Positions 42,837-58,186 of a DNA stretch of 64,000 bases are shown here, piece by piece. Numbering within the stretch: position 1 is the stretch's first letter; each line of letters begins with the position of its first letter. The notes below the pieces were generated by a model. That model saw nothing but the letters and a program-made list of their open reading frames with translations, ran no database searches and had not been told where the DNA came from. Source of the DNA: an uncultured Candidatus Saccharibacteria bacterium (lineage in GTDB: Bacteria; Patescibacteriota; Minisyncoccia; Phycocordibacterales; CAIRYW01); NCBI GenBank assembly GCA_964446625.1, contig CAYUPH010000001.1, forward strand, positions 70,283 through 134,282. Reading direction: 5' to 3'. The position numbers were made by a program, and so were the translations under genes.

Positions 42837-43874
42837 TTACAACTCCATATTAACAATAAACTGGTTAGACACACCTCCTCCTGACCCAACCGAAACAGGG
42901 AAAGATATTTTCCCCTTAGCGTCTTCCCAGTGTATAGACTCTGATTGAGGAAGATCCTGAAGAGAAAAAATAATCACACCTTGGTTCGATTTTACCTCTA
43001 GTTCTGATCCAAATGGGGTATAAACAGCGTTATTTTTATCACTGAAGTTGTCCCCCTCTATATGAAGATCAGCTGTTTTACCCTTTCCTGTGACAGTTAC
43101 TTTATTTATTTTTGGAGGAATACTTGTAGCACTGCCAACAGAAATATTTCTATCACTCATTTTAACTGATTCACCTTTAGAATTTTTTATATGAACTGAG
43201 TAGACTCCCTCTTCAAGACTTGGGACAGTAACTTCGAGGGTATAAGGGGGTATGAATTTACTTGTCGCATCTTTTGTCCCAACAGTAATAGTATTTTTTT
43301 CTTCAAAACCAATGCCAAAAATATAGAAACTCTGTCCAATCTGCGAAGTGAGAGAAGATTGAGACACAGGAAGGATGGTGTTTTTTGGATAAGCTTTTTC
43401 AAGTCCACTTAAATCAGGGCTTGTAATGGGGGGTAGAGAAGGGGTACTCACAACCCGTCCTTCTAAAATGGAATTGATTTTTTCTCTTGTTCGAGGACCA
43501 AAATATCCACTCCCATAGAGATATCCTAAAGGAGACAAAATATCTGCGGCATATTTGTTTTGAAATTTTATAACGGCGGCTTTTGTTTTTTCGCCAAAGT
43601 AAATAGTTTCGAACCCAAGAGAGCCCGGACCAGGTGTACTAAGAGCAGTGTCCGGATCCTTATTGAGCACTTGTTGTAGAAACATTACATCCTCGCCTTC
43701 CATTCCGACAGTGAGATCACGCTGAAAAGCTGACTCAGCATGCGTGTTTGCAACCAAAAGAAATGAGAAAAAAGAAATAAAAAAGAAATTTTTCTTTACT
43801 ATATTCACAGGTTCATTGTACCACAGCAGGAATAATCTTGATATAATAAACAAATGGAAAAACCAAGCAAACAA
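42837..43874 (-). CDS. Secreted protein with peptidoglycan-binding domain (PG_binding_1-like) plus a beta-rich C-terminal region
   Basis: DLTVGMEGEDVMFLQQVLN...FGEKTKAAVIKFQNKY matches the PG-binding domain pattern. The true start is probably an internal GTG/ATG; the track start is used here. Confidence 0.55.
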   Translation of the reverse strand: MFAWFFHLFIISRLFLLWYNEPVNIVKKNFFFISFFSFLLVANTHAESAFQRDLTVGMEGEDVMFLQQVLNKDPDTALSTPGPGSLGFETIYFGEKTKAAVIKFQNKYAADILSPLGYLYGSGYFGPRTREKINSILEGRVVSTPSLPPITSPDLSGLEKAYPKNTILPVSQSSLTSQIGQSFYIFGIGFEEKNTITVGTKDATSKFIPPYTLEVTVPSLEEGVYSVHIKNSKGESVKMSDRNISVGSATSIPPKINKVTVTGKGKTADLHIEGDNFSDKNNAVYTPFGSELEVKSNQGVIIFSLQDLPQSESIHWEDAKGKISFPVSVGSGGGVSNQFIVNMEL

Positions 43875-44834
43875 GTGACTGCTGTTCTTATAATTTCGAT
43901 TTCAATTATTCTTGGTGCTCTTTTAATAAAATACAAACCTTTTTCCTCATTGACATTCACAAGTGAAAAATCTCCAGAAATCAAAGATCTCACTGTAGGT
44001 ACAGGGGCTCAAAATACAATAGAAATTGACTCAGATGAGGATGGTCTTAAAGATTGGGAAGAGATTTTATGGAAAAGTGATTCAAAAAACAAAGACTCAG
44101 ACAATGATGGAACTAATGACGGAGACGAAGTGAAACAGGGAAGGAATCCGATGATAAAAGGACCGAACGACAAAAACACAGAAGAAAGTGGTGAAGGATC
44201 ATTTTTAAAGACCGGAGGAAATGGAACATCTGAGGAAAACATTAGTCAAAAGTTTACAACTGCCTTTTTGTCTGATTTTACCTACCTAGAAAGCACTGGT
44301 AATTTGAATAATGAAACAAAAACACAGCTTATTCAAAAATTTACAGAGGGAGCCGATGGTGCTTTTCCTTTTAAAAAATATGACCTTTCTTCACTTTCTG
44401 TTGACTTAAATCCGACTCAAGAAGAGCTTAAGTTTTATGCCACAACCATTGCAACGCTTCAAACTAATACTTTAGTCTCTATATCAAAAAGCAGTCCGCT
44501 TATCGAGAGAGACTTAGATGTTATGGCAGATATTTATAAAAAATTAATGGAAGATTTTCTTGCCGTACAAAATGTACCATCAGTCCTGGCACCAGCGCAC
44601 CTACAGATAATAAATAATTACAGCGCATCAAGTGAAGCTTTCAGAGCTCTAAAAAGAGCAAAAGACGACCCTATTAAAGCAAGTTTAGCCATGAATGTTT
44701 ATAAGTCTCTCGGGGATCTTCACTATGCTCTCCTTCTTAAAATGGCAAAGTATTTTAACGAAAATGGTATAATTTTTAATGATGAAGAAATTGGGTCATA
44801 CTGGACAATTATACTGAATCAAGAATCGCAATGA
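43854..44834 (+). CDS. Membrane-anchored protein with Asp-rich calcium-binding-like repeats (DSDEDGLKD, DSDNDGTNDGDE); first gene of the T4SS-like operon
   Basis: N-terminal TM plus thrombospondin-type-3-like D-x-D-x-DG repeats. 4-nt overlap with the next gene. Confidence 0.5.
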   Translation: MEKPSKQVTAVLIISISIILGALLIKYKPFSSLTFTSEKSPEIKDLTVGTGAQNTIEIDSDEDGLKDWEEILWKSDSKNKDSDNDGTNDGDEVKQGRNPMIKGPNDKNTEESGEGSFLKTGGNGTSEENISQKFTTAFLSDFTYLESTGNLNNETKTQLIQKFTEGADGAFPFKKYDLSSLSVDLNPTQEELKFYATTIATLQTNTLVSISKSSPLIERDLDVMADIYKKLMEDFLAVQNVPSVLAPAHLQIINNYSASSEAFRALKRAKDDPIKASLAMNVYKSLGDLHYALLLKMAKYFNENGIIFNDEEIGSYWTIILNQESQ

Positions 44835-46165
44835 TTTTTACAAAAAACTCACAAAATAAAAAAAGAATAAGTTTGCTCATTCTGGTTGTTTTTATTTATG
44901 TAACTGGTTTCAGTACAGTATCTTATGCTCAAACATCAGGTACTGGTGGTCTCCAAGTACCTGGTGCAAGTACAATGACTGATACCTCCTCAAACTCTGG
45001 CACAGGATCAAATCAGCAAACCGGCACTACAGGTACTCAAAATACCACCTCTGGAACACAAGGCGCGGGAGGAACCAAAAAAACAAATGAAAGTTATCAA
45101 AATGCAGATGGTACATACAAAACCGCTCCTGAGGGAATAGGTCAACAGGAAGGTAGTGTTGGAAAAAATGTTGCAGCATCTGCGCTTTCTTGCTCTGTAT
45201 CTGCAATCTTAGGAAACCTTGTTTCTAGCACAATTGGAGCAGCCCTCAGTGAGCTAACAGGAATGCTCAGTGGATGGCTTACAGATGCGCTGGGAGGAAT
45301 TATAAATATTGAGGTAGTAAAGGAGGTACCTACTAAAGATAGAATCGTACGAAACAACACTGGACTTACAACCTCAAAAGAAACAGGAAATGGAAAAACA
45401 GGTAATATCCTTACAACTATACTAAATGGTATTGGTTCCGTATCTTGGGACTCGATTGGGTGGTGCCTAGGAATCGAAATTGTGCGATATATTTCTGACG
45501 CAACTGTATACTGGATTCAAAATGGATTTGAAGGAAAACCAATTTTTATCGATAACCCTGGTTCTTTTTTTGAGGGGTTGGCTGACCGAGAAGCTGGAAA
45601 CTTTATCAAAGAAATAGTTGATGGCTCAACAGGGATAAATGTGTGCGAACCATTTAAACTAGGGGTAGGGGTTGCTATCAATTACGCATACTCAAATAGT
45701 GGACGCGGAGGCAGACAAATTGGTTGTTCTCTTGACCAAATAAAAAATAACTATGATGCTTATATGCAAAACTGGAATGAGGGAGGGCTTATCGGACTTG
45801 CAGAAATTGCACAACCGGAAAACAACTTTTATGGTGCTTACGAACAAGCAGAAAATCAACTTATACTTCGAATTAATGCTCAAAAAGCAGTTGAAAAGCT
45901 AAAACAATCATGGAATAACGGATATAGAACATTTGAAAAATGTGATGAGAGTAAGAAAAGAGCAGATGGTTCGCAAGACCCCGCATATTGTAAAACTGTG
46001 ACTCCAGGTTCTCTAGCAAAGAAAGCAGTTGAATCTCGTACAATAGACTCTTCAACATTTAAAACCGTACTCGCAGATGAATTTGATGAGATTATTACTC
46101 AACTTGTTAACCAGCTCGTTCGAATTGCAGTAAACGAAATGTTTGATGCTGTAGAAGGTCAATAA
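44831..46165 (+). CDS. Secreted Thr/Gly-rich protein (hypothetical)
   Basis: Signal peptide and low-complexity TG-rich N-terminal third; no domain recognised. Confidence 0.5.
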   Translation: MIFTKNSQNKKRISLLILVVFIYVTGFSTVSYAQTSGTGGLQVPGASTMTDTSSNSGTGSNQQTGTTGTQNTTSGTQGAGGTKKTNESYQNADGTYKTAPEGIGQQEGSVGKNVAASALSCSVSAILGNLVSSTIGAALSELTGMLSGWLTDALGGIINIEVVKEVPTKDRIVRNNTGLTTSKETGNGKTGNILTTILNGIGSVSWDSIGWCLGIEIVRYISDATVYWIQNGFEGKPIFIDNPGSFFEGLADREAGNFIKEIVDGSTGINVCEPFKLGVGVAINYAYSNSGRGGRQIGCSLDQIKNNYDAYMQNWNEGGLIGLAEIAQPENNFYGAYEQAENQLILRINAQKAVEKLKQSWNNGYRTFEKCDESKKRADGSQDPAYCKTVTPGSLAKKAVESRTIDSSTFKTVLADEFDEIITQLVNQLVRIAVNEMFDAVEGQ

Positions 46166-46211
46166 GCCTTTTCAACTTATTTTTTATAATAAGTTTTGCT
46201 ATAATGAAATC

Positions 46212-48950
46212 GTGTTAAGGAAAACCTTAAAAAAAAGTTTAGTTTTCTCTATTATTATCGCCTGCTTTTGTGGAGCTTTTCCAAATTTGACCCATGCAAC
46301 TATGCAGTCTTTTTTGGTGAAGAAGGCGAATATAACAGTCAACGGAGTTACATATGACATACCACAGGATCCTTCTTGGATAAACCAAGCCATATTAGGT
46401 TGGAAATCTATTTTTTCTGACGCAGCTCAAGGCGTCGGAAATGATGTTGCAATTGGAATAACAACTGCGCTCCCAAAAGCATTGAGTGGTTTTATAACCC
46501 ACTTCTTTATCGATGGATTCTTTATGATCGCAACAGGTATCCTCATAATTTCCACTTTTCTTTTTAATATAATTTTCGAGATAACATTGGTGGACATGGG
46601 AGGACTATTGGGTCGTTTTACAGCAATTGGCGCAGTATGGAAACTTATGCGCGACTTAGGGAATGTAGTAATGATTTTTACACTTCTGTACTATTCCTTT
46701 TCTCTTATGCTTAATCTAGATGAGGGGGGAGTAAAAAGAGGAATTAGTAAACTTATTATTGTTGCAATGCTTATTAACTTCAGTATGTTTTTTACTAAAA
46801 GCATTATTGATGTAGGAAACATACTTGCTTTAGGATTTTATAACAAAATATCTATTTCAAATGAGAGTCAGTTTGAAAAGGAAAATAAAGTTTTGATTGA
46901 AAAACTAAGAGCAAATAATTTATTAGGCTACTTTGTCCAAGGATATTCTGCTGCGAAAAGAAGCGTAGGTCTAGCAAGTGCATTTCTTTCTGGTTTTAAT
47001 TTCCAAAAAATAAAAGCTAACCCTGGGAGTTTTTTTCAAAATGCCACGTCAGTTAGCTCTATCGATGTCACTCTAAACAATGTTCTAACGATACATATTA
47101 TAGGAACCTTGATGATGCTTTTTTTATCAATTGTTTTTCTTGCTGCAACTATTATCTTTATAAAAAGGTTTATAGTACTACTAGTACTCATAATTATTTC
47201 CCCTTTAGCTTTTATTGCGATGGTTTTACCACGGGGTATGGGTGAAGAAATGGGGGGGACTTTTTGGAAAAAACTAATCTCGGAAGCACTTGCGGCCCCG
47301 GTCTTTATGTTCATGATCTGGCTTGGATTTAAGATAATAACTGATGAGCAGTTTAAACTAGCTATTAAGTCTGATAATTATCCATTTCTTTCTCTCCCTG
47401 TTATCTTTTCATATACCATAGCAAACTTCATACTCGTCGGATCTCTTATTGCAAGCCAAAAAGTAGGAGCTTCAGGTGCAGAACAGGCTATAAATGTTTA
47501 TAAAGGTGTTAAGGGGTGGGTAGGACAAAATACTGTAGGCCGTGCCGCCTACCAAGTTCTAGAAAAAGGTGGGACTGCACATTGGTTGTATCAAACAAGA
47601 GCTGATGGTATTGGACGAAACATACCTTTTGTTGGAAAAGGAGTGCAGGCAATGACAAAGTTTGGTGCATCAAAAATCTTTGACACACTTCACCACACCG
47701 CATCCTCAAAGTTTGATAGCATTCCCTCTTTTGGTGATCATGGACATGGTGATCATGGACACGGTGATCATGGACATGAACCGGGAGGATTTGCAAAAAA
47801 AATCAGCGATGATGCTAAGAAAAAAATGGACTGGATAAATGAAAACAAAAATAATCCTAAAGAGTGGATAGGAACTCTTATGTTGAAGCAATATAAAGAA
47901 GGTAATAATAGTGATTATGACACAAAAGTAGTCGAAAGAGTCATTGAAACTATGAAGATAGAAGACCTTGCAGAAATGACACGTACTGTTGATTTAGAAA
48001 AGAAGGAATTAGAGGAAAAGGACAAGGAAGGAAAACTAGGCGCTAAAGAAAAAGAACGTCTTGCAGTTCTTCAAGGTTTTAGAGAGCTTATTGATCACCG
48101 TCTACCTGCCAATACAGCAGAGCAACTTCGTAGAAAAGTAGAAGGTCCAACACGAGTAAACCAAATTGAATTTGACAGACTAGCAAAAAATATATTCCAG
48201 AGAGATGCTCAGGGTAATCTGAATAGTAGCGGAAGAACAATGGAAGAGATTGTATCACTCCAGGCAGCCCTCAGAGAATTAAGAAAGAATCCGAATGCCA
48301 CTCCTACAGTAAAAATGGCAGATGGAACGGTAAAGACTTTTATCGGAGAAGTTGGTATAAGAGAAGCACAAAAGAAGATTGGAATAAATTACAAAGAAAA
48401 AAACATCTCCGCACTTCGCCAGTACTATTCTTCATTAAACGGAAAACAGAAAACAGGACTTACAGGTGAGTCTCTGATTAATAAGGCAGTTCTTGACTTA
48501 AATAACGATACTGATGTCTTTGAACAAATGCAAAGGGAAGCAAAACAAACAGGAAAGGAAAAAGAATCTATGGGGAGCGTAGGATTGAGTCATAAGAGAA
48601 ACTTCGAACTTTATAGTAAAATTAAGGAAAAACACGCCCAAAATCAGGATTATTCTACAGAGGAAAGTGAGCTTATTGAAAATCTTCGAGACAGAGGACT
48701 GCACATAGAAGGAGAGGGTGATCAAATGAGAGAACTAACTCCTGAAGAACTTCTAAAAAAATATGTTGCAGAGGAATACAATGACGGCTCAAAACTTGAG
48801 AAGTATTTCAAAAACAATGGAGCAAGATTTTACGGTGAGGAAAGTCCAGAAAGAGAAGTTGAACGAGTTAAAGAAATGTTTGCGGCACGCAGACAACCAC
48901 CAGCGGGAGGCGCTACCCCTCCTCCTCTCCCTGGAGGGCCTCGACCATAA
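46212..48950 (+). CDS. VirB6/TrbL-like polytopic inner-membrane protein with long C-terminal soluble extension (HGD repeats, Pro-rich tail)
   Basis: Signal peptide, at least 6 predicted TM helices in the first 420 aa, then a 490-aa hydrophilic domain. Gene context includes VirB3-like and VirB4. Confidence 0.5.
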   Translation: MLRKTLKKSLVFSIIIACFCGAFPNLTHATMQSFLVKKANITVNGVTYDIPQDPSWINQAILGWKSIFSDAAQGVGNDVAIGITTALPKALSGFITHFFIDGFFMIATGILIISTFLFNIIFEITLVDMGGLLGRFTAIGAVWKLMRDLGNVVMIFTLLYYSFSLMLNLDEGGVKRGISKLIIVAMLINFSMFFTKSIIDVGNILALGFYNKISISNESQFEKENKVLIEKLRANNLLGYFVQGYSAAKRSVGLASAFLSGFNFQKIKANPGSFFQNATSVSSIDVTLNNVLTIHIIGTLMMLFLSIVFLAATIIFIKRFIVLLVLIIISPLAFIAMVLPRGMGEEMGGTFWKKLISEALAAPVFMFMIWLGFKIITDEQFKLAIKSDNYPFLSLPVIFSYTIANFILVGSLIASQKVGASGAEQAINVYKGVKGWVGQNTVGRAAYQVLEKGGTAHWLYQTRADGIGRNIPFVGKGVQAMTKFGASKIFDTLHHTASSKFDSIPSFGDHGHGDHGHGDHGHEPGGFAKKISDDAKKKMDWINENKNNPKEWIGTLMLKQYKEGNNSDYDTKVVERVIETMKIEDLAEMTRTVDLEKKELEEKDKEGKLGAKEKERLAVLQGFRELIDHRLPANTAEQLRRKVEGPTRVNQIEFDRLAKNIFQRDAQGNLNSSGRTMEEIVSLQAALRELRKNPNATPTVKMADGTVKTFIGEVGIREAQKKIGINYKEKNISALRQYYSSLNGKQKTGLTGESLINKAVLDLNNDTDVFEQMQREAKQTGKEKESMGSVGLSHKRNFELYSKIKEKHAQNQDYSTEESELIENLRDRGLHIEGEGDQMRELTPEELLKKYVAEEYNDGSKLEKYFKNNGARFYGEESPEREVERVKEMFAARRQPPAGGATPPPLPGGPRP
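47733..47777 (+). repeat. Perfect 15-nt tandem repeat x3 (GGTGATCATGGACAT) encoding (GDHGH)3
   Basis: Direct reading of the sequence; lies within the VirB6-like ORF. Confidence 0.9.
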
Positions 48951-49874: not shown

Positions 49875-49944
49875 AACAGACCGATTCCGGTCTGTTTTAT
49901 TTTTCTGTTTTCTTTTTTAGGATTATAATTAGTCTATATATTTT

Positions 49945-50445
49945 ATGCAGTACCAAGTTCCACAATTTATTGAAGTCGAGGATAAAATCTTTGGACCCCT
50001 TACCTTTAAACAATTTGCATATCTTGTAGGGGGCGGGGGGATTTCTTTTCTTGTTCACAGATTCATTGGTTTCCCTTTTTCAATACTTATTGCTCTCCCA
50101 ACTCTTGCTTTTGCACTCGCTATGGCATTTTACAGAGTGAACAATAAGCCTTTTATTGAAATTTTTGAAGCAGCAGTCAAATATACCCTTGGGAGCAAGC
50201 TCTATGTTTGGAAAAAACAAGAAAAAAGGGTAGCCCCCGAGGCAGCTGTTCAAATGCCTGGATCTAGTGTGTATGTTCCAAAACTCTCTGAGTCGAAACT
50301 TCGGGAACTTACATGGAACCTCGACATTAATGAGACGATTTATTCAAATGAAGAAAGACGAGAAAGGGATGAAAAGACTGGAAGGGAAGGACCTCTGAAT
50401 GCATTTAAAGGTCTTTCCTACGATTTAAATGAAAATATGAGATAA
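49945..50445 (+). CDS. PrgI/VirB3-like small membrane protein
   Basis: MQYQVPQFIEVEDKIFGPLTFKQFAYL followed by two TM helices then YRVNNKPFIEIFEAAVKY. Compare the PrgI pattern VP...K...LT.RQ...TM...Y.RDGLPFE. Lies immediately upstream of VirB4, as in Gram-positive T4SS. Confidence 0.55.
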   Translation: MQYQVPQFIEVEDKIFGPLTFKQFAYLVGGGGISFLVHRFIGFPFSILIALPTLAFALAMAFYRVNNKPFIEIFEAAVKYTLGSKLYVWKKQEKRVAPEAAVQMPGSSVYVPKLSESKLRELTWNLDINETIYSNEERRERDEKTGREGPLNAFKGLSYDLNENMR

Positions 50446-51092: not shown

Positions 51093-52904
51093 ATGTCATT
51101 ACTTGATAAACTTTTAGGAAAAAAACAAGAAGAAGCCCAGCCTGTAACAGCTATCTTGCCTGAGGAAATTTACCAGGCAGGAGTCCTTGAGCTCAAAGAT
51201 GTCATTGCACCATCAGCCCTGAAGATTACACCTCGTGAAATTAACCTTGGTGACAAGATCGCTCGAACATTTTTTGTGATCTCGTACCCTCGCTTTCTTA
51301 CAGAAAGTTGGTTTGCTCCGATTGTAAACCTCGACAAAATTTTTGATGTTTCAGTATTCATTCACCCAATTGATACAGCACAAATCCTAAGACAATTTCA
51401 AAAAAAGGTTGCCGAAGTGCAAAGCCAGATTTCGGAAAGGGAATCCAAGGGACTTGTAAGGGACCCGATGCTCGACACCGCGTACCAAGACCTCGAAACA
51501 CTGCGAGACCAACTCCAGCAGGCACAAGAGAGACTTTTTGAAGTAGGGCTCTATATTACAATCTACTCAAACACAACAGAGGAGCTTGATAAAATCGAAT
51601 CTGAACTAAAATCAATCCTTGAATCAAAACTTGTTTACTTAAAACCAGCGCTCTTCCAACAAGAACAAGGTTTTAGAAGTGTCATGCCAATCGCAACAGA
51701 TGAGCTCGAAGTACACTCAAAATTAAACTCTTCTCCTCTTTCAAGCATCTTTCCTTTTATTTCATTTGACCTTACGAGTGATAAGGGAATACTTTTTGGT
51801 ATTAACAGACACAACTCCTCTCTAATTCTCTTTGACAGATTCTCACTAGAAAACTATAACTCAGTTACATTTGCGAAAGCCGGAGCAGGAAAAAGTTATT
51901 GTACAAAACTTGAAATACTCCGTTCACTTATGTTTGATACTGATGTGATTGTTATTGACCCAGAGAGGGAATACGAATATATGGCAGAATCAACGGGAGG
52001 TCGCTACTTTAATATCTCGCTTACTTCAGAGCACCATATCAACCCATTTGATCTTCCTACCCCTCGAGAAGACGAATCTCCAGCGGATGTTCTTCGATCG
52101 CACATTATTAACCTAGTAGGACTCTTCCGAATTATGCTTGGCGGACTCACACCTGAGGAAGATGCAATCATCGACCGCGCGATTACTGAAACCTATGCCC
52201 TCAAAGATATTTCTCCATCAAGTAAGTTTGACACTATCGAACCACCTCTTATGTCTGACTTTGAGCTCGTTCTTGCAGGTATGGAAGGAGGAGGATCGCT
52301 CGTTCAGAGACTTGAGAAATATACAAAGGGAACGTGGGCAGGATTCATTAACAGACCAACAAACGTTGATATCAATAAAAAGTTCGTAGTTTTCTCTCTT
52401 CGAGACATGGAAGATGAACTAAAGCCTGTTGCGATGTACATTGTGACTCATTACATCTGGAATGCTATTAGACAAAAACTAAAGAAGCGTCTTCTCGTGA
52501 TCGATGAGGCCTGGTGGATGATGAAAAGTGAGGATACTGCTTCCTTCCTTCTTGGACTTGCAAAACGAGGACGAAAATATTATCTTGCTCTTTCAACAAT
52601 TACACAAGACGTCGAAGACTTTCTTAAATCCCCTTATGGGCTTCCTATTATTACAAACTCATCTATCCAAATACTCCTTAAACAGTCGCCTTCTTCAATC
52701 GACATAATTCAACGTACTTTTAATCTCACTGATGAAGAAAAGTTTCTGCTTCTTGAGTCAGATGTAGGAGAGGGAATCTTTTTTGCAGGACTAAAACACG
52801 TTGCGATTAAAATTATTGCTTCCTATACCGAGGATCAAATCATTACATCAAATCCTGAGCAAGTTCTCGCAATCAGAGAGGCAAAAAGAAATAGCGAAAT
52901 ATAA
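51093..52904 (+). CDS. VirB4/TrbE/CagE-family type IV secretion ATPase (ATPase portion)
   Basis: Walker A FAKAGAGKSYCT, Walker B and DEAW motif LLVIDEAWWMM, family-typical length and context. Confidence 0.85.
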   Translation: MSLLDKLLGKKQEEAQPVTAILPEEIYQAGVLELKDVIAPSALKITPREINLGDKIARTFFVISYPRFLTESWFAPIVNLDKIFDVSVFIHPIDTAQILRQFQKKVAEVQSQISERESKGLVRDPMLDTAYQDLETLRDQLQQAQERLFEVGLYITIYSNTTEELDKIESELKSILESKLVYLKPALFQQEQGFRSVMPIATDELEVHSKLNSSPLSSIFPFISFDLTSDKGILFGINRHNSSLILFDRFSLENYNSVTFAKAGAGKSYCTKLEILRSLMFDTDVIVIDPEREYEYMAESTGGRYFNISLTSEHHINPFDLPTPREDESPADVLRSHIINLVGLFRIMLGGLTPEEDAIIDRAITETYALKDISPSSKFDTIEPPLMSDFELVLAGMEGGGSLVQRLEKYTKGTWAGFINRPTNVDINKKFVVFSLRDMEDELKPVAMYIVTHYIWNAIRQKLKKRLLVIDEAWWMMKSEDTASFLLGLAKRGRKYYLALSTITQDVEDFLKSPYGLPIITNSSIQILLKQSPSSIDIIQRTFNLTDEEKFLLLESDVGEGIFFAGLKHVAIKIIASYTEDQIITSNPEQVLAIREAKRNSEI

Positions 52905-52906: not shown

Positions 52907-53881
52907 ATGATTGCGTTTCTATGGAACTGGGTGGTGTGTCTTTTTGTTCCTTTTGCAGGAACAATAACTATTTTTGCTGAAGGAATTGTGGGAAAAGATA
53001 TAAATGGCAGAAAGATAAAAAGTCATTTGTTCCATATTCTTCTAGCATTTGTCTCTCTAGGGATTGATCTGCTCCTTCTTGGATACGGAGGAAATATCGT
53101 CCGGGCAATAGTTAAGATTTTAGGTCGTCCGTTTGCAAAAATAGGAGAAAAAACTGTTACTACAGCAGTTCAAACTTCTGTTAAAAGCACTTCACGTGTG
53201 GGAAGTCGTGCAACTGGGCGAATAACGGAAAGAAAACTTGCTCAAGAAAGCGAAAAAGTTGCTCAGGAAGCTATCGAATCTACAACTAGGCAAATCCAAA
53301 ATGAAAGTGAACATGGTTTTAAAGAGTTTAAAAAAAATGAACAAGCCCGAATTTCAGAAAAAGAGAAAATAGATCTCTCTAGTATGAAAGAAAACATTGA
53401 GAAAGCTCGACAAGACAATCTCGATGACTCGAATTCGCAATCAGAATTTGGTACCATATCAGAAGATCTGTTTAGTAGCGCAAAGGAAGAATCTAAATTT
53501 GCATCCAAACTCGAAAAAGCAATAGAAAGAGATCCTTCGCTAAAGAATGTAGCTGCAAAAAAGGTTACGCAAAATATTCCTGAGATGTCGAAAGTATTTG
53601 ATCAAAAAAAGGACCCGAGTAAGAGAGAAAAAATGAAAGAAAAGATCTTGTCACAAGTGCTACAAGAACAAGATGTAAATGTTGCTTTTGAAAAACTTGC
53701 CCAAAAAATTCGACATAACCCGCGCTCTCTAAAAAAACTAGAAATGATGATTTTAAAATTACCCCCTTCAGACCTAGTAAAGAAAGATGACCTAAAAAAA
53801 ATTGTCACATCCTTAATAGAAGGTTCAACTCCGGAGGTTAACACTTCTACAAAAAACACCGAAAACAATGCACGAAAGTGA
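52907..53881 (+). CDS. Membrane protein with coiled-coil cytoplasmic/periplasmic domain (hypothetical T4SS-like component)
   Basis: Two N-terminal TM helices then a charged coiled-coil region; in the operon. Confidence 0.45.
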   Translation: MIAFLWNWVVCLFVPFAGTITIFAEGIVGKDINGRKIKSHLFHILLAFVSLGIDLLLLGYGGNIVRAIVKILGRPFAKIGEKTVTTAVQTSVKSTSRVGSRATGRITERKLAQESEKVAQEAIESTTRQIQNESEHGFKEFKKNEQARISEKEKIDLSSMKENIEKARQDNLDDSNSQSEFGTISEDLFSSAKEESKFASKLEKAIERDPSLKNVAAKKVTQNIPEMSKVFDQKKDPSKREKMKEKILSQVLQEQDVNVAFEKLAQKIRHNPRSLKKLEMMILKLPPSDLVKKDDLKKIVTSLIEGSTPEVNTSTKNTENNARK

Positions 53882-53919: not shown

Positions 53920-54954
53920 ATGAAAAAGTTTTATTTTTCACTAATTATTATAATATGTTTTATTGCAGCTTTTTTCTCCTTTAAAGCTTTGGGTCAGGGT
54001 ACACTTTCTATACCCGCACAAATTAATGGACTAGAAGAACAAATCTCACTAAAAGTAAGTCCTCAAGTACCTGAACCTGGAAAGCCTGTAGTTCTTACAG
54101 TAAATGCTTATGGAACAGATATATCGAAAGCAAAAATTACATGGAAAACTGATGGAAAGGTAGTATTAGGGCCAGGAGTAGCAACCTCCTTAACCTTAAC
54201 TATGGGCACAATTGGTGAGGCTGTTACTGTAGAAGTGATCGTTGAACCTTTTAATGGACCAGCTGTAAACAAAAAAGTCACCCTCATACCTGGCGAGGTT
54301 GATTTAATCTGGGAGGCAGAGGGATACAATCCACCATTTTATAAGGGGAAGATCTTTTATGGTCCTGAGAAAAATGTAAAAGTGGTTGCAATTCCAAATA
54401 TATATGATACTTCTGGCAAAAAAGTGAACCCTCTAAATCTGGACTTTAAATGGAGTAAAAATAATGAGATAGAAGGCAGCGTCTCTGGTGCTGGAAAAAA
54501 CTACTGGCCTTTTAAAGGGTGGATATTACTCAAGAGTATCGAAGTTGGAGTTACTGTAGGAAGTGAAGGAAAAGTAAGAGGGCAAAGTAGCTTTAACCTA
54601 CCATCTTTCTTTCCAGAGGTAAGAATGTATGAAAATAGTGGAATTTATGGAATTCTTTTTAATAGATCGCTTTTAGGTACATCAGAACTTAAGGATACTG
54701 AACAAACAGTTGAAGTGTACCCATTTAGTTTTGGAATCCAAAACCGCACTGACCCCGCTTTTCGTGTAACTTGGCAGATGAATAGAAAAAATATTTTTTC
54801 AACAGAAGGTAAATCAAAAATTACAGTAAGAAATACTGAGAATGAAAGTGGGGAAGCAGAACTAGGTGTGAAAGCGCAGAATATAAATTACACATTTGAT
54901 GAAAGTGCAGGAAGATTCACACTAAAGTTTAGCAAAAAGGATTTTGAATTTTAA
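53920..54954 (+). CDS. Secreted beta-rich protein (hypothetical)
   Basis: Signal peptide; no domain recognised. Confidence 0.5.
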   Translation: MKKFYFSLIIIICFIAAFFSFKALGQGTLSIPAQINGLEEQISLKVSPQVPEPGKPVVLTVNAYGTDISKAKITWKTDGKVVLGPGVATSLTLTMGTIGEAVTVEVIVEPFNGPAVNKKVTLIPGEVDLIWEAEGYNPPFYKGKIFYGPEKNVKVVAIPNIYDTSGKKVNPLNLDFKWSKNNEIEGSVSGAGKNYWPFKGWILLKSIEVGVTVGSEGKVRGQSSFNLPSFFPEVRMYENSGIYGILFNRSLLGTSELKDTEQTVEVYPFSFGIQNRTDPAFRVTWQMNRKNIFSTEGKSKITVRNTENESGEAELGVKAQNINYTFDESAGRFTLKFSKKDFEF

Positions 54955-55892
54955 TGGATAATATAATTAAAAAGTCCGTAATCATTATTACATTTTTATT
55001 GGTTTTAGTGATTCCTTTTTTTTCACACGCCTATGTCCCCCTTGTCCAAGTAGACGGCCTAACAACGAACCTTGACTCCAATAACCCAAACCTCATCAGT
55101 GAATACTTGCTTGGGCTTTATAAGTTTGGGGTAGGGCTCGCAGCAGCTATTGCTATAGTCCTCATTATTATTGGAGGATTTCAGTATGCCACAACAGACG
55201 CTATCGGAGGGAAGGAGGATGGAAAGGAGAGAATAAGAAATGCTATTGGAGGACTCCTTCTTGCTTTGTTTTCTTTTTTAATTCTTAACACAATTGATCC
55301 AAGACTGACGAGTGTGGATTTTAATGTCGGAGAAGTGGAGGTGGAAACATCCTCGGTTCTTTCTATTGCTATTGGGTTGCGCAGTGATGCAGATATGCAG
55401 TATGCAGGAGACGGGGGAGAGCTTCCTTCTCCAAATATGGACTTTGATGTTGTTAATCATTTAGATTTAAGTTCAAGTGGTACCGCAGGAAACTATCGTA
55501 GCACTTGGTATAATAAAAATGAAAAAGGAGCGGATAAATGGACAATAAAGGGGCAAACCTCTACTGGAATCCCACTAAGATTTGCAGACGCAAACACAGT
55601 TGGTGTTGCTGCAGTTGACCCAAATATTATTCCATACGGAAGCGTTATTTTGGTAGGATCGGGTGCAAATAGAAGAGTGTATGTTGCTGGAGATACAGGG
55701 TCTGCCGTAGTTAATAGAACCGCATCTGGACGAACTGTACCTGTCATAGATTTTTATAGTCAAGGACAGGTAGGTAGAGAATACGATAATTTCAGTGTCA
55801 TTCCTTATACTGGAGGAAACTTCCAGTCTCTATCGGGAGAAAACAAAGCAGCTGTTATAGAGAATATTCGTTCAACATATTTAAGTCACTAA
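54954..55892 (+). CDS. VirB2/TrbC-like pilin-type N-terminal membrane module fused to a 3D-domain (MltA-like) cell-wall hydrolase domain
   Basis: Signal peptide plus two hydrophobic helices separated by the short loop DAIGGKEDGKERIRN. The C-terminus has AVDPNIIPYGSV...VAGDTGSAV...VIDFY, the three-Asp pattern of 3D domains. Confidence 0.5.
   Translation: MDNIIKKSVIIITFLLVLVIPFFSHAYVPLVQVDGLTTNLDSNNPNLISEYLLGLYKFGVGLAAAIAIVLIIIGGFQYATTDAIGGKEDGKERIRNAIGGLLLALFSFLILNTIDPRLTSVDFNVGEVEVETSSVLSIAIGLRSDADMQYAGDGGELPSPNMDFDVVNHLDLSSSGTAGNYRSTWYNKNEKGADKWTIKGQTSTGIPLRFADANTVGVAAVDPNIIPYGSVILVGSGANRRVYVAGDTGSAVVNRTASGRTVPVIDFYSQGQVGREYDNFSVIPYTGGNFQSLSGENKAAVIENIRSTYLSH
55037..55324 (+). repeat. 288-nt direct repeat, copy 1 (1 mismatch to copy 2 at 55961-56248), encoding the shared pilin-like module
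   Basis: Direct sequence comparison of the two segments. Confidence 0.9.
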
Positions 55893-56770
55893 TGAAAAAG
55901 CAAATATTTAAATTTTTATTTTTTGTCACTTTTTTTCCACTTATTTGCTTCGGCTACACCCCCCTTGTCCAAGTAGACGGCCTAACAACGAACCTTGATT
56001 CCAATAACCCAAACCTCATCAGTGAATACTTGCTTGGGCTTTATAAGTTTGGGGTAGGGCTCGCAGCAGCTATTGCTATAGTCCTCATTATTATTGGAGG
56101 ATTTCAGTATGCCACAACAGACGCTATCGGAGGGAAGGAGGATGGAAAGGAGAGAATAAGAAATGCTATTGGAGGACTCCTTCTTGCTTTGTTTTCTTTT
56201 TTAATTCTTAACACAATTGATCCAAGACTGACGAGTGTGGATTTTAATTTAGGAAACGCTGTTAAGGTTGATACAGATAGTGTGCTCGATATATTGCAAG
56301 ACCCAAACTTTATAGAGGAAGATAATTACTCAATTCCAGGAGTCACACCCGTAGAACCCGCTGGTGCGATTGGAGAAAAAACTAATATACCTGCGGGTAT
56401 TCGAGTTGATAGTCAAGGAAAACAAGTTGATATCACTATGAAATCCAGCTTAGAGCGCCTAAACCAGGAATTAGGAAAAAACAACATCGGATGGGCTGTC
56501 ACAGAGGCTTACCCACCAAGTAGGCAACACAAGGCGCCATGTCACCAAACTGGAACTTGCATTGATGCGAACTTCCGAAGTACTGATGCAAGTCCTGAGA
56601 ACGTAAAGAAATTTCTTCAGAGCGCGAGCACAGCAGGACTTCGAGCGGTCTATGAAGTTCAGTCTGAAAGTGAAAGAACCAGATTTGTAAACGCGGGTGT
56701 TCCAGCGGAAAGCATAGTGAACCTTGGAAGTTGGATCACTGCTCCACACTTTTCTGTTTATAGTAATTAA
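55892..56770 (+). CDS. Paralog of the previous gene: same pilin-like N-terminal module fused to an M15 (VanY/LAS)-like peptidase domain
   Basis: N-terminal about 96 aa identical to the upstream paralog. The C-terminus has CHQTGTCIDANF (H..G..D) and a terminal APHF, resembling LAS metallopeptidase motifs. Confidence 0.45.
   Translation: MKKQIFKFLFFVTFFPLICFGYTPLVQVDGLTTNLDSNNPNLISEYLLGLYKFGVGLAAAIAIVLIIIGGFQYATTDAIGGKEDGKERIRNAIGGLLLALFSFLILNTIDPRLTSVDFNLGNAVKVDTDSVLDILQDPNFIEEDNYSIPGVTPVEPAGAIGEKTNIPAGIRVDSQGKQVDITMKSSLERLNQELGKNNIGWAVTEAYPPSRQHKAPCHQTGTCIDANFRSTDASPENVKKFLQSASTAGLRAVYEVQSESERTRFVNAGVPAESIVNLGSWITAPHFSVYSN
55961..56248 (+). repeat. 288-nt direct repeat, copy 2
   Basis: Direct sequence comparison with 55037-55324. 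Confidence 0.9.
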
Positions 56771-56794
56771 TTATTTTTGAGGTAAAATATAGCT

Positions 56795-58186
56795 ATGCTT
56801 AAGAAAGTAGTTATCGCGCTCGAAATTCTTTTGGTAATTATTCTTCTTTGGGTTGGGTACGCTTTCTTCAAATTTAAAACAAACCCAAAAAATGAAACTT
56901 TTGTTGAAACAGCCAGCAACATTTTTCCTTTTGGTGATTTTGGATCGTCTCCAGATTTAAAACTTGGAAGTGGGGGTGGCGCAGTAGGCGACACGACACC
57001 TTCTCCAGATTCTACATTAGACGGAAACACTACAGATGATCCAAGCCTTAATACCCCTAGCGTAATTCCTAGACTGCGCCAAATTACCACTGTCCCTACA
57101 GCTGGTTCAATCATTGTTCCAAGAGAGAAAGAAATCATTAAAGACGGTAAAAAGACAAAAATTACAGAGTATTTTATTCGTTATACAGACCGTGCCACAG
57201 GACATGTGAGTGAAACTAAAACAGATTCCTTGTCAGTAGAAAAAATTTCTAATACAACTATTCCAAAAGTATATGAGGCTTACTATACATTCGGAGGTGA
57301 CGGATTTCTAGCAAGACTCCTTGATGACGATGGAGAAACTATAAAAACTTACTTTGTTTCTCTCGTAAAAAACACAGGCACTTCAACAGACCCAGCAAAT
57401 ATTCTTTCCCCTAAAGAATCGAGCATCTCATTTCTACCGAACAACCTCAGAGAAGTGTCACTTTCTCCTGACAGACTTTCACTTCTATCCCTTTCATATG
57501 GAGGAAGTGGGGGAGTAATTGAAGCAGGAAGTGTCACAGGAAAAAATAAAAAAACAGTTTATAATGGCGAACTTAGAGAATGGCTCATTGAATGGGTTGA
57601 CGCGGGACGCGCAATTCTTACAACAAAACCTTCTGGATACGTTGTAGGGTATTCTTACTTCCTTAATATGGTAAGTGGAGGATTTGATAAGATTACTGGG
57701 GGAATTTTAGGCCTTACAATACACGCTGCACCAAACACACAATTTATACTCGTTGGAGAAGGTGGAAACACACAAAACCTGTCAGTTTATTCCACGAAGG
57801 ATAGATCGCTGCGAGTAACTGGACTTAAAACACTCCCTGAAAAATGTACTTTTGCAAAAAAAGAAAAAAATACAGCGTATTGTCTTGTTCCTTTCATTCT
57901 TCCAGAAGGTGTATACCCTGACAGTTGGTATAAAGGGGACATCACGTTTTCTGATACCCTTTGGAAAATTAATCTCGAAAACGGTGAAACAAAACTAGTA
58001 GCAAACTTTAGATACCCATACAACCAAGAAATAGATGGAGTAAACCCAGAAGTTGCCTCTAATGATGCGTATATAACGTTTATAAACAAAAAAGATCTTA
58101 CTCTCTGGGGTTACACCATAGAAGAGCAAGTTGCTGCAACTACAACAAAAAGCACCGCTTCTTCTACAGCGGTGCTTCCTCGATAA
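56795..58186 (+). CDS. Membrane-anchored periplasmic/extracellular protein (hypothetical); last gene of the operon
   Basis: N-terminal TM and a 440-aa hydrophilic domain; no motif. Its 3' end overlaps jag convergently by 23 nt. Confidence 0.5.
   Translation: MLKKVVIALEILLVIILLWVGYAFFKFKTNPKNETFVETASNIFPFGDFGSSPDLKLGSGGGAVGDTTPSPDSTLDGNTTDDPSLNTPSVIPRLRQITTVPTAGSIIVPREKEIIKDGKKTKITEYFIRYTDRATGHVSETKTDSLSVEKISNTTIPKVYEAYYTFGGDGFLARLLDDDGETIKTYFVSLVKNTGTSTDPANILSPKESSISFLPNNLREVSLSPDRLSLLSLSYGGSGGVIEAGSVTGKNKKTVYNGELREWLIEWVDAGRAILTTKPSGYVVGYSYFLNMVSGGFDKITGGILGLTIHAAPNTQFILVGEGGNTQNLSVYSTKDRSLRVTGLKTLPEKCTFAKKEKNTAYCLVPFILPEGVYPDSWYKGDITFSDTLWKINLENGETKLVANFRYPYNQEIDGVNPEVASNDAYITFINKKDLTLWGYTIEEQVAATTTKSTASSTAVLPR

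What the first reader, a model, noticed from the sequence alone, without database searches (positions are those of the whole stretch)
43854..58186. Compact 13-gene T4SS-like operon with no relaxase or coupling protein in view
Thirteen co-directional genes with 1-4 nt overlaps or very short gaps encode the recognisable core of a Gram-positive-style type IV secretion apparatus. These are a VirB6/TrbL-like polytopic protein (46212), a PrgI/VirB3-like protein (49945), a VirB4 ATPase (50453 and 51093) and two pilin-type modules (54954, 55892). There are at least six secreted or membrane proteins with no recognisable family (43854, 44831, 48975, 52907, 53920, 56795). Two genes on the opposite strand immediately upstream carry a PG-binding domain and Gly-rich repeats. 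No VirD4, relaxase or oriT-like sequence is present in the window. This argues for a non-conjugative use (host attachment or effector delivery, or DNA uptake) like that described for T4SS-like loci in episymbiotic Patescibacteria; the unknown components may be lineage-specific parts of that machine.
Basis: partly seen in the sequence, partly recalled or inferred. Interest (0 to 1): 0.8.

Follow-up and report, generated by a model that had tools for sequence, protein, structure and literature searches.

The report
Patescibacterial chromosomal type IV secretion locus
This is the conserved, origin-proximal, relaxase-free type IV secretion gene cluster that ultrasmall Patescibacteria (here a Paceibacteria/Parcubacteria genome) carry on their chromosome. 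The system was already described in 2023-2025, but here its two "pilin" genes are fused to cell-wall-cutting domains.

Summary

Both pilin modules score just under the PF18895 cut-off, while orthologues pass. One is fused to a 3D domain, the other to a Hedgehog/DD-peptidase (M15-like) fold.

No relaxase or coupling protein lies in the window or within 10 kb of VirB4 in 80 related genomes. The order UvrD-KsgA-...-VirB6-PrgI-TrsD-VirB4-...-YidC-DnaA-DnaN is conserved across Paceibacteria, with VirB4 at 77-85% identity. This argues for a vertically inherited core machine, not an ICE.

What may be new:
- A VirB2-like module carries highly variable C-terminal domains (27 clusters among 40 proteins), a few recognisably wall-active.
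- The two copies here share 270 nt with one mismatch.

Overall: a new member of a known kind, of moderate interest.

The parts
43854..44834 (+). g1, 326 aa: N-terminal membrane anchor, Ca-binding TSP3-like repeats, and a C-terminal domain of unknown family
   Evidence: One TM-like segment. TSP3_bac scores 24.3 bits, just under the cut-off. Found in 20 of 38 full related loci at the same position. The family profile finds nothing informative in PDB apart from the repeat.
44831..46165 (+). g2, 444 aa: signal/anchor sequence, Thr/Gly/Ser-rich linker, and a conserved Cys-containing extracytoplasmic domain of unknown family
   Evidence: Found in 26 of 38 related loci. Family alignment A10 has invariant W228, P237, P392, G393 and conserved Cys. 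No Pfam or PDB match.
46212..48950 (+). g3, 912 aa: extended VirB6/TrbL-like polytopic membrane protein (signal sequence plus about 6 TM helices, residues ~90-430) with a ~480-aa charged C-terminal tail
48975..49874 (+). g4, 299 aa: soluble, highly charged protein with a conserved ~100-aa N-terminal domain; unknown family
   Evidence: No TM segment and 33% charged residues. Only the N-terminal ~100 residues are conserved in relatives.
49869..49902 (+). Terminator-like hairpin (15-bp stem followed by a T-run) between g4 and prgI. It may split the cluster into two transcription units or attenuate read-through.
   Evidence: folding energy -18.1 kcal/mol. Not conserved in relatives (3 weak candidates in 65 loci).
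49945..50445 (+). g5, 166 aa: PrgI/VirB3-like membrane protein
   Evidence: Pfam PrgI 38.4 bits against a cut-off of 27. Present in 38 of 38 related loci.
50453..51091 (+). g6, 212 aa: TrsD/TraC-like protein, i.e. the VirB4 N-terminal domain encoded as a separate gene
   Evidence: NCBIfam VirB4_plasma 41 bits, TrsD 31 bits and CD1110 positions 2-118. Precomputed PF26593 TraC-like hit. Aligns to the N-terminus of an unsplit Clostridium VirB4. The split is conserved: 75 separate ORFs with a median of 215 aa.
51093..52904 (+). g7, 603 aa: VirB4 ATPase core with Walker A (AKAGAGKS) and Walker B (LLVIDEAW)
   Evidence: NCBIfam conju_CD1110 366.6 bits against a cut-off of 325, covering profile positions 185-732. 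P-loop_TraG 90 bits. 76-85% identical to the best 80 loci kept from more than 590 related genome stretches. Homologue alignments begin at the 51093 ATG rather than at 51063.
52907..53881 (+). g8, 324 aa: small polytopic membrane protein (2 TM helices) with a long charged tail; a variable accessory gene
   Evidence: No sequence homologues among relatives. In most related loci an ORF of about 110-360 aa, nearly always with 1-4 TM-like segments, occupies the same position; the gene is absent in about 19 loci.
53920..54954 (+). g9, 344 aa: anchored or secreted protein with three Ig-like repeats (recurring W-x-x-N/D-G motif)
   Evidence: Ig_3 weak hit. The family profile hits phage T4 Hoc, an Ig-like protein, at E 8e-4. 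Present in 38 of 38 related loci.
54954..55892 (+). g10, 312 aa: signal peptide, VirB2-like two-helix pilin module (aa ~27-118), linker, and a C-terminal 3D (MltA/YuiC-type) domain
   Evidence: T4SS_pilin 22.5 bits (below the cut-off of 26.6) and 3D 27.8 bits (above the cut-off of 23.8). Three hydrophobic segments.
55892..56770 (+). g11, 292 aa: signal peptide, the same VirB2-like module (aa ~22-113), linker, and a C-terminal Hedgehog/DD-peptidase (LAS, M15-like) domain (aa ~160-292)
   Evidence: T4SS_pilin 23.7 bits. AF2 pLDDT 83, with the helical hairpin 41-109 and the C-domain above 95. Foldseek top hits are the Hedgehog N-domain and LdcB/VanY-like carboxypeptidases, probability 0.92-1.0. 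Invariant E205, H213, D225, E255 and H286 in 52 homologues.
55042..55311 (+). 270-nt segment encoding the mature pilin module of g10. It is repeated at 55965-56234 in g11 with a single mismatch, and similarity drops to random on both sides.
   Evidence: The same arrangement appears in independent ENA assemblies.
56795..58186 (+). g12, 463 aa: N-terminal membrane anchor, low-complexity linker, and a ~370-aa domain that is probably beta-propeller-like
   Evidence: Present in 38 of 38 related loci. Only weak propeller hints: TolB at E 0.036, and PD40, DPPIV_N and DUF5050 in one orthologue each.
42369..43799 (-). Two divergently transcribed secreted proteins: PG_binding_1+TIG (likely true start near 43799) and a 154-aa Gly-rich protein. 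They may be associated with the machine through the cell wall.
   Evidence: The PG_binding/TIG gene is found at the same position in 9-10 related loci.

Best explanation
What it is. This is the chromosomal, vertically inherited type IV secretion system of a Paceibacteria (Patescibacteria/CPR) bacterium. It descends from the monoderm (MPF_FATA, CD1110-like) conjugation machinery but is no longer coupled to DNA-processing genes.

Shown here:
- Membrane platform: an extended VirB6 (g3), PrgI/VirB3 (g5), and a VirB4 ATPase split into a TrsD-like N-domain (g6) and an ATPase core (g7).
- Two proteins (g10, g11) that share the same VirB2-like helical-hairpin module. Their extracytoplasmic C-termini are peptidoglycan-enzyme-like: a 3D/MltA-type domain in g10 and a LAS/M15-type domain in g11.
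- Lineage-specific envelope proteins conserved in all close relatives: g9 with Ig-like repeats and g12, which is probably a propeller.
- A fixed position between ksgA and yidC-rnpA-dnaA.

Inferred mechanism:
1. VirB4/TrsD, docked by VirB3 on a VirB6 channel, extracts the VirB2-like modules from the membrane.
2. It assembles them into a short pilus or conduit.
3. The C-terminal hydrolase domains are thereby displayed outside the cell. There they open the epibiont's own wall, taking the place of a VirB1-type hydrolase, which is not encoded as a stand-alone T4SS gene in this cluster. They may also act on the host's wall at the contact site.
4. The Ig-like and propeller proteins form or stabilise the extracellular part.
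5. The machine serves host contact and macromolecule exchange needed for epibiotic growth, not conjugation.
For: Family assignments.
- PrgI and VirB4 exceed the curated cut-offs.
- TrsD is the VirB4 N-domain.
- The pilin hairpin is predicted with pLDDT above 90, and 37 of 44 related pilin-module proteins hit PF18895.
- g11's C-domain has the LAS fold plus an invariant His/Asp/His/Glu set.
- g10's 3D domain is above the Pfam cut-off.

Lineage and context.
- The nearest non-CPR VirB4s are Firmicute or actinobacterial CD1110-type proteins at 26-34% identity. In conjugative-type Firmicute loci they lie in the order VirD4-VirB6-PrgI-VirB4-hydrolase.
- More than 590 related genome stretches were found. 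The best 80 are all Patescibacteria/Parcubacteria-type or unclassified MAGs with VirB4 76-85% identical.
- Gene order from UvrD-KsgA to YidC-DnaA-DnaN is conserved in the 38 loci with full flanks.
- VirB4 (median 79%) is more conserved than DnaA (60%) in the same genomes.
- GC content does not differ from the flanks.

No conjugation genes.
- No relaxase or T4CP domain was found in the window.
- None was found in about 16 kb of extra contig sequence.
- VirD4 tblastn found nothing in the window or the 80 loci.

Literature.
- The T4SS genes and the pilin array are essential for epibiotic growth of Southlakia epibionticum, while comEC is dispensable (PMC10633639, PMC12857230).
- The TrsD+VirB4, PrgI, VirB6 and VirB2 repertoire, its proximity to dnaA/ksgA/rnpA, and the lack of relaxase are described phylum-wide (PMC12102498).
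- Tubular structures proposed to be T4SS pili were seen at a Patescibacteria-host interface (bioRxiv 10.64898/2026.06.21.733656).
Against: - Function is inferred by homology to a different class (Saccharimonadia). Nothing in the sequence shows what, if anything, is transported.
- The window's own pilin modules score below the PF18895 cut-off, and a helical hairpin is a generic fold.
- A filament whose every subunit carries a 150-200-aa domain is unprecedented for VirB2.
- Some members of the g11 family lie away from any VirB4, next to miaA; one sits beside a serine-recombinase/Prim-Pol element.
- No VirB8-like component was identified.
- A coupling protein could be encoded elsewhere in the genome; PMC12102498 finds VirD4-like genes in most Patescibacteria genomes.
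- The LAS-fold match is weak by E-value (1e-2), and no HMM recognises the domain.
- If the host is an archaeon, as for the one cultured Paceibacteria member, the hydrolase domains could only act on the bacterium's own wall.
Confidence: 0.8

Rival explanations
1. An ordinary integrated conjugative element or conjugation system, whose relaxase, coupling protein and oriT simply lie outside the window.
For: The core is homologous to Firmicute conjugative T4SSs. Only about 80 kb of the genome could be inspected. VirD4-like genes are common elsewhere in Patescibacteria genomes (PMC12102498). A tyrosine recombinase and a tRNA cluster lie 16-21 kb upstream of the cluster.
Against: - The locus lies between housekeeping genes in the same order in dozens of species.
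- VirB4 is more conserved than DnaA.
- GC content shows no shift.
- No relaxase or T4CP lies in the window, and no VirD4 lies within 10 kb of VirB4 in 80 relatives.
- Only 109 relaxases were found in 3,035 genomes (PMC12102498).
Confidence: 0.04
2. A DNA-uptake machine (ComB-like or Ced-like) that imports host DNA, either as a nucleotide source or for recombination.
For: - ComB of Helicobacter is a T4SS that lacks VirD4 and relaxase (established knowledge).
- NCBIfam gives a weak CedB (archaeal DNA importer) hit on VirB4.
- A ComM-like Mg-chelatase ATPase and UvrD lie just upstream.
- In class ABY1 the T4SS genes sit beside comF, recG and radA (PMC12102498).
- Patescibacteria lack nucleotide synthesis.
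Against: In S. epibionticum, competence depends on T4P and ComEC. Deleting comEC is tolerated, whereas the T4SS is essential (PMC10633639, PMC12857230). UvrD and KsgA adjacency is explained equally well by the origin-proximal housekeeping context. The CedB hit covers only the P-loop region.
Confidence: 0.12
3. The VirB2-like modules are only membrane anchors. Under this view g10 and g11 are membrane-tethered autolysins that open the cell's own wall for machine assembly or growth (a VirB1/PrgK-type role), and no pilus is made.
For: - Monoderm T4SSs normally lack pili and carry a membrane-anchored multi-domain hydrolase next to virB4.
- Here glycan-cleaving-type and peptide-cleaving-type domains are supplied by g10 and g11, and the cluster has no stand-alone VirB1.
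- Some family members are encoded away from any VirB4.
- The window's modules score below the pilin family cut-off.
Against: - The N-terminal module belongs to the same family as the small essential pilins of S. epibionticum and the Mbov_0395 pilin-like conjugal proteins.
- The extreme variability of the C-termini (27 clusters among 40 proteins), set against a 79%-conserved VirB4, fits an outward-facing, host-interacting role better than housekeeping wall remodelling.
- Tubular structures have been seen at a host interface (bioRxiv 10.64898/2026.06.21.733656).
Confidence: 0.3

Closest known systems
Patescibacteria-clade T4SS as surveyed by Quinonero-Coronel et al. 2025 (PMC12102498), Paceibacteria-type locus
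   Same: - TrsD-like gene next to a short VirB4.
- PrgI/VirB3, VirB6 and PF18895 VirB2-like genes.
- No relaxase or T4CP nearby.
- Neighbours dnaA, dnaN, rnpA and ksgA.
- Monoderm (MPF_FATA) ancestry.
   Different: That survey treats VirB2 homologues as small pilins and reports at most 54% identity within arrays. Here the two modules are about 99.6% identical at the DNA level over 270 nt, and each is fused to a different enzyme-like domain. As far as I read it, the survey's main text does not describe such fusions.
Southlakia epibionticum ML1 T4SS, SEML1_0006-0019 (Wang et al. 2023, PMC10633639)
   Same: A Gram-positive-like T4SS with pilin genes inside the cluster. It has no recognisable coupling protein or relaxase in the cluster and is chromosomal. 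It is the only member with functional data (essential in Tn-seq).
   Different: It belongs to class Saccharimonadia. It has six small, sequence-divergent pilins, and separate peptidase and lysozyme genes downstream of virB4 instead of pilin-enzyme fusions. The proteins g1, g2, g9 and g12 seen here are Paceibacteria-specific as far as tested.
Firmicute CD1110/CD1112/CD1115-type conjugative T4SS (e.g. Clostridium botulinum pCDC3875, locus L081)
   Same: The core order VirB6-PrgI-(x)-VirB4-cell-wall hydrolase, and the best non-CPR VirB4 matches at about 26-34% identity.
   Different: These loci have VirD4 immediately upstream, a MOBP relaxase on most of the replicons, an unsplit ~800-aa VirB4, a short (~260-aa) VirB6, no pilin, and a large stand-alone SLT or NlpC/P60 hydrolase.
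pGO1 TrsD/TrsE (MPF_FATA subclass with a separate VirB4-N-terminal-like protein)
   Same: A separate small protein homologous to the VirB4 N-terminus, encoded beside the ATPase (NCBIfam TrsD hit; PMC12102498).
   Different: pGO1 is a conjugative staphylococcal plasmid with a relaxase and a coupling protein. The TrsD score here (31 bits) is far below the subfamily cut-off of 200.
Pontibacillus sp. ALD_SL1 898-kb plasmid locus (L082)
   Same: T4SS_pilin gene (47 bits), extended TrbL-like 779-aa protein, VirB3-like protein, a 274-aa ORF, a short 621-aa VirB4 (33% identical over 95% of the query), then a large DD-metalloendopeptidase. No VirD4 is annotated within 9 kb.
   Different: It is in a Bacillota genome, and the pilin is small and unfused. 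There are no homologues of g1, g2, g9 or g12. Its function is unknown.
Helicobacter pylori ComB DNA-uptake T4SS
   Same: A T4SS that works without relaxase or VirD4, offered as a functional analogy for a non-conjugative use (established knowledge).
   Different: It is a diderm MPF_T-type system with VirB7, VirB9 and VirB10, and it has no close sequence relationship to this locus.

Membership tests
Type IV secretion system (VirB4-defined superfamily) | A VirB4-family ATPase with intact Walker A and Walker B motifs | tested here: met
   NCBIfam conju_CD1110 366.6 bits against a cut-off of 325; P-loop_TraG 90 bits. AKAGAGKS and LLVIDEAW can be read in the translation.
Monoderm (MPF_FATA-type) T4SS | A VirB3/PrgI-like protein next to VirB4 | tested here: met
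   Pfam PrgI 38.4 bits against a cut-off of 27. The gene ends 7 nt before the TrsD-like gene.
Monoderm (MPF_FATA-type) T4SS | A VirB6/TrbL-like polytopic channel protein | tested here: met
Monoderm (MPF_FATA-type) T4SS | A VirB8-like (NTF2-fold) bitopic protein | not tested
   No Pfam or PDB sequence signal in any ORF. PMC12102498 also fails to find VirB8 in most classes.
Monoderm (MPF_FATA-type) T4SS | A cell-wall hydrolase (VirB1 role) and no outer-membrane core (VirB7/9/10) | tested here: met
   The 3D domain and the LAS-fold domain sit on g10 and g11. No VirB9 or VirB10 family hit was found in any ORF.
Conjugative element (ICE or plasmid) | A relaxase and a type IV coupling protein (VirD4/TcpA) associated with the T4SS | tested here: not met
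   No such domain in any window ORF scanned or in the called genes of about 16 kb of extra contig. VirD4 tblastn found nothing in the window or 80 related loci. The rest of the genome could not be searched.
Conjugative element (ICE or plasmid) | Mobile context: an integrase at the border, atypical composition, patchy distribution | tested here: not met
   Flanked by ksgA/uvrD and jag/yidC/rnpA/dnaA. GC is 36-40%, like the flanks. Synteny holds in the 38 full-flank loci.
Patescibacteria-clade T4SS (PMC12102498) | VirB4 belongs to the Patescibacteria clade; TrsD-like gene adjacent; origin-proximal housekeeping neighbours | tested here: met
   The best 80 genomic matches are all Patescibacteria/Parcubacteria-type or unclassified MAGs at 76-85% identity, against at most 34% for any plasmid VirB4. 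No phylogenetic tree was built.
PF18895 T4SS_pilin (VirB2-like) | Score at or above the Pfam gathering threshold; signal peptide plus a two-helix hydrophobic hairpin | tested here: inconclusive
   The window proteins score 22.5 and 23.7 bits against a cut-off of 26.6. 37 of 44 related pilin-module proteins match the family, the best at E 9e-10. Most database homologues carry PF18895. AF2 predicts the helical hairpin 41-109 with pLDDT above 90. No filament has been shown.
Peptidase M15 / LAS (Hedgehog/DD-peptidase fold) zinc peptidases | The fold, plus H-x6-D and a distal His as zinc ligands with a catalytic acid | tested here: inconclusive
   No Pfam, NCBIfam or PDB sequence hit. Foldseek's top hits are the Hedgehog N-domain and LdcB/VanY-like enzymes at probability 0.92-1.0 but E of only 1e-2. 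H218-x6-D225 and H286 are present. E205, H213, D225, E255 and H286 are invariant in 52 sequences, whereas H218 is not invariant. Activity is untested.
3D domain (MltA/YuiC-type lytic transglycosylase-like) | Pfam 3D at or above the gathering threshold | tested here: met
   27.8 bits against a cut-off of 23.8, but only profile positions 3-42 of 72 are matched. YuiC appears only at E 0.5 in the PDB sequence search.

The most novel reading that the evidence does not exclude
In Paceibacteria the VirB2-like 'pilin' may be a conserved trafficking or polymerisation module that carries interchangeable C-terminal domains. A few of these are recognisably cell-wall-active (LAS/M15-like, VanY, 3D, NlpC/P60, YkuD); most are unknown.

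Supporting observations:
- Among 40 such proteins at the same locus position there are 27 unrelated C-terminal types.
- The g11-type domain is found essentially only as such a fusion, across about 640 sequence clusters.
- In this genome two copies share a 270-nt module with one mismatch, as if kept identical by gene conversion so that C-termini can be swapped.

The T4SS would then be a pilus that displays or delivers polymorphic enzymes to breach the envelope at the host contact site. This would be a polymorphic-effector logic not described for any T4SS pilin.
Probability: 0.25. Interest if true: 0.7.

Novelty: new member of a known kind. Interest (0 to 1): 0.4.

Why it matters
The locus is one more example of the machine thought to underlie the obligate epibiotic life of a very large, mostly uncultured bacterial radiation. 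Finding it confirms current knowledge but does not extend it.

The extra value is in the details:
- The 912-aa protein can now be called VirB6 on fold evidence.
- The split VirB4 is a fixed feature, not a frameshift.
- VirB4 is under stronger constraint than DnaA.
- The proteins annotated as pilins in this class are two-domain proteins. Their outward-facing halves vary enormously, and a few resemble wall-cutting enzymes.

If those fusions are built into a filament, they would suggest how a wall-less-conduit machine gets through two cell walls. They would also give concrete, testable enzymes for a system whose substrate is unknown.

Tried and rejected
- The PDB sequence search with the g11 C-domain gave nothing. 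With the g10 C-domain, YuiC appeared only at E 0.5.
- The g3 family profile against PDB sequences returned only coiled-coil noise from the charged tail.
- Foldseek with the g3 model was nearly uninformative: a single R388 T4SS chain (8rtd_L) at probability 0.87 and E 0.39. I could not confirm which subunit that chain is.
- Family profiles and per-member Pfam scans for g1, g2 and g12 gave no assignment beyond TSP3 repeats and faint propeller hints.
- I considered that the split VirB4 was a frameshift or assembly error. I rejected this because 75 relatives have the same separate ORF and several independent assemblies agree.
- I considered that the duplicated pilin module was an assembly artefact. 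I rejected this because the order A-R-B-R-C is the only path through the repeat and it recurs in independent assemblies.
- I tested whether the internal terminator-like hairpin is a conserved feature. It is not.
- Rfam found only the four tRNAs.
- The promoter consensus scan was no better than shuffled sequence.
- I considered that the g11-type family is strictly linked to T4SS loci. I rejected this for a divergent subgroup that lies next to miaA.

Full report
**Observation**

The stated interval holds 12 co-directional ORFs, not 13. They overlap by 1-4 nt or are separated by 1-70 nt. The largest gap (49875-49944) contains a 15-bp-stem terminator-like hairpin at 49869-49902. That hairpin is specific to this genome, with only 3 weak candidates in 65 relatives. 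The cluster may therefore be read as g1-g4 plus prgI-g12.

Composition does not differ from the flanks. The flanks are housekeeping genes. Upstream lie an M23/LysM peptidase, UvrD/PcrA and KsgA. Downstream lie Jag (R3H), YidC, RnpA, DnaA and DnaN. The rest of the window encodes NusA, pyrophosphatase, trigger factor, ClpP, RNase Y, a class I aminoacyl-tRNA synthetase, PNPase, CCA-adding enzyme, a XerC/D-like recombinase, a ComM-like ATPase and three TrmB-type regulators.

**Component assignments**

- **PrgI/VirB3 (49945):** passes the Pfam cut-off.
- **VirB4 core (51093-52904):** passes the NCBIfam CD1110 equivalog cut-off, 366.6 against 325 bits.
- **VirB4 N-domain (50453-51091):** matches profile positions 2-118 of the CD1110 model, and also TrsD and VirB4 models. 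It carries a precomputed TraC-like Pfam hit. It aligns to the N-terminus of an unsplit Clostridium VirB4. Together the two ORFs make one VirB4. The split is the fixed state in relatives: 75 TrsD-like ORFs with a median of 215 aa and 79 VirB4 ORFs with a median of 607 aa.
- **Pilin-type genes (54954, 55892):** both score just below the PF18895 cut-off, but 37 of 44 related pilin-module proteins match the family. The AlphaFold2 model of g11 predicts a confident two-helix hairpin.
- **g10 C-terminus:** a 3D domain above the Pfam cut-off.
- **g11 C-terminus:** no HMM or PDB sequence match. The model (pLDDT above 95) is closest to Hedgehog N-domains and LdcB/VanY-like carboxypeptidases. 52 homologues keep E205, H213, D225, E255 and H286 invariant, with an H-x6-D arrangement.
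- **The remaining proteins:** g9 has three Ig-like repeats. g12 is a membrane-anchored, probably propeller-like protein on weak evidence. g1 has Ca-binding TSP3-like repeats. g2, g4 and g8 remain unassigned.

**Relatives**

A scan of one genome per species with VirB4 found more than 590 related stretches. The best 80 loci are 76-85% identical, and all are Patescibacteria/Parcubacteria-type or unclassified MAGs, including Taylor-, Zambryski-, Kaiser- and Nomurabacteria.

In the 38 loci with full 10-kb flanks, the counts were:

| Gene | Loci with a match (of 38) |
|---|---|
| PrgI, TrsD, VirB4, g9, g12 | 38 |
| g3, YidC, DnaA, DnaN | 37 |
| KsgA | 32 |

The gene order matches the window. Within the same genome pairs, VirB4 is more conserved (median 79%) than DnaA (60%), UvrD (52%) or DnaN (40%). 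This points to strong purifying selection.

The best VirB4 matches outside the radiation are Firmicute and actinobacterial plasmid genes at 26-34% identity. In the Firmicute conjugative-type loci examined, the order is VirD4-VirB6-PrgI-VirB4-hydrolase, with an unsplit VirB4 and, on most replicons, a MOBP relaxase. None of g1, g2, g9 or g12 has a homologue there.

**Conjugation genes**

No relaxase or coupling-protein domain occurs in any scanned ORF of the window. None occurs among the called genes of about 16 kb of additional contig sequence. Four Firmicute VirD4 proteins find nothing by tblastn in the window or the 80 related loci. The rest of the genome could not be examined, and absence of an oriT cannot be shown with these tools.

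**Comparison with the literature**

The finding reproduces a published picture.
- Wang et al. 2023 (PMC10633639) showed that a Gram-positive-like T4SS is essential for epibiotic growth of Southlakia epibionticum. It has in-cluster pilins and no recognisable coupling or relaxase proteins.
- Quinonero-Coronel et al. 2025 (PMC12102498) surveyed 3,035 genomes. They described the monophyletic Patescibacteria VirB4 clade nested in MPF_FATA, the abundant TrsD partner, PrgI, VirB6, PF18895 VirB2 arrays, the scarcity of relaxases, and the proximity to dnaA, dnaN, rnpA, rpmH and ksgA, especially in Paceibacteria.
- A 2025 review (PMC12857230) lists these systems as a new T4SS type.

This locus is a new member of it.

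**What may go beyond the literature**

I found no mention of the following in those papers' main texts.
- At the syntenic position, 40 of 55 pilin-module ORFs in related genomes carry C-terminal extensions of 100 aa or more (median 176 aa). These fall into 27 unrelated clusters.
- The few extensions recognisable to Pfam are wall-active domains: YkuD, Peptidase_M15_3, VanY, NlpC/P60 and 3D.
- The g11-type domain has 641 clusters among 1.84 billion representatives. Of 196 retrieved proteins with the domain, 183 also have the pilin module. Nearly all the rest are fragments.
- In this genome, the two modules share 270 nt with a single mismatch and sharp boundaries. The published maximum within arrays is 54% amino-acid identity. 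Paralogues in other genomes are 59-80% identical.

This pattern resembles conserved-module, variable-tip proteins.

Against a strict link to the T4SS, two divergent family members lie next to miaA with no VirB4 within the sequence available (7 kb of flank for one, a 3.4-kb contig for the other). One of them sits beside a serine recombinase and a Prim-Pol gene.

**Mechanism**

Shown: the parts list, the topology predictions, the conservation and the non-mobile context.

Inferred:
1. VirB4/TrsD on a VirB3-VirB6 platform extracts the VirB2-like modules from the membrane and assembles them.
2. The appended 3D and LAS domains end up outside the membrane. There they provide the VirB1-type wall opening that no stand-alone T4SS hydrolase in this cluster supplies, and possibly attack the host wall.
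3. g9 and g12 build the extracellular part.
4. The system supports host contact and exchange rather than conjugation.

The main alternative for the fusions is that they are simply membrane-tethered autolysins and no pilus forms. A DNA-uptake role cannot be excluded, but the S. epibionticum comEC result argues against it.

**Verdict**

The system is already known. Interest is moderate, because the pilin-enzyme fusions and the fold-level VirB6 call add testable detail.

Noticed in passing
window 55042-55311 and 55965-56234: A 270-nt segment encoding the mature VirB2-like module is repeated with one mismatch. The signal peptides upstream and the enzyme-like domains downstream are unrelated. This suggests recent gene conversion or module duplication.
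   Followed up: yes
L001-L080, the gene between the g9 and g12 homologues: 40 of 55 pilin-module ORFs in related Paceibacteria carry C-terminal extensions of 100 aa or more. They fall into 27 unrelated clusters, a few recognisable as YkuD, M15_3, VanY, NlpC/P60 or 3D.
   Followed up: partly
L091 7001-7879 and L092 915-1829: Divergent members of the pilin-LAS fusion family lie next to miaA rather than next to VirB4. In L091 the gene sits directly beside a serine recombinase and a Prim-Pol/AAA_25 gene, which looks like an integrated element.
   Followed up: no
L082 (Pontibacillus sp. ALD_SL1 plasmid NZ_CP062975.1, 351801-361354): A Bacillota locus with the same unusual layout: T4SS_pilin, extended TrbL-like protein, VirB3-like protein, a 274-aa ORF, a short VirB4, and a DD-metalloendopeptidase. 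No VirD4 is annotated nearby and flagellar genes are adjacent. It is a possible non-CPR counterpart.
   Followed up: partly
window 49869-49902: A strong terminator-like hairpin (-18 kcal/mol) lies inside the cluster, between g4 and prgI. It is absent from relatives.
   Followed up: yes
L089 1-9822 (same contig, reaching window 1-3324 on the minus strand) and L090 17724-19448: Type IV pilus/T2SS-like genes (PilB/T2SSE, PilC/T2SSF, an N-methyl pilin) and a 1451-aa ORF with no Pfam hit lie just upstream of the window start. The 1451-aa ORF runs into the window. A second T2SSE ATPase lies about 6.6 kb past dnaN.
   Followed up: no
window 51093-52904 compared with 60040-61380, across L001-L080: VirB4 (median 79% identity) is clearly more conserved than DnaA (60%), UvrD (52%), YidC (45%) or DnaN (40%) in the same genome pairs.
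   Followed up: partly
window 22000-28600: The cumulative GC-skew minimum falls near 22-24 kb, at a cluster of three tRNA genes. A XerC/D-like tyrosine recombinase lies nearby (27502-28548, minus strand). The minimum is not at dnaA (60 kb), so taking dnaA as the origin may be approximate.
   Followed up: no
window 10405-11256 (-), 32910-33707 (+), 34352-35152 (+): Three paralogous TrmB-family transcriptional regulators occur in a 25-kb stretch of a very small genome.
   Followed up: no
window 36382-38270: A DksA/TraR-type zinc-finger protein is followed directly by a ComM-like (Mg-chelatase/ChlI) ATPase, 5.6 kb upstream of the T4SS cluster. ComM is linked to transformation in other bacteria.
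   Followed up: no
window 15593-16684, 17057-18268 (-), 20595-21890 (-), 35291-36325: Four ORFs of 344-431 aa have no Pfam match at E of 1e-5 or better. They were not examined further.
   Followed up: no
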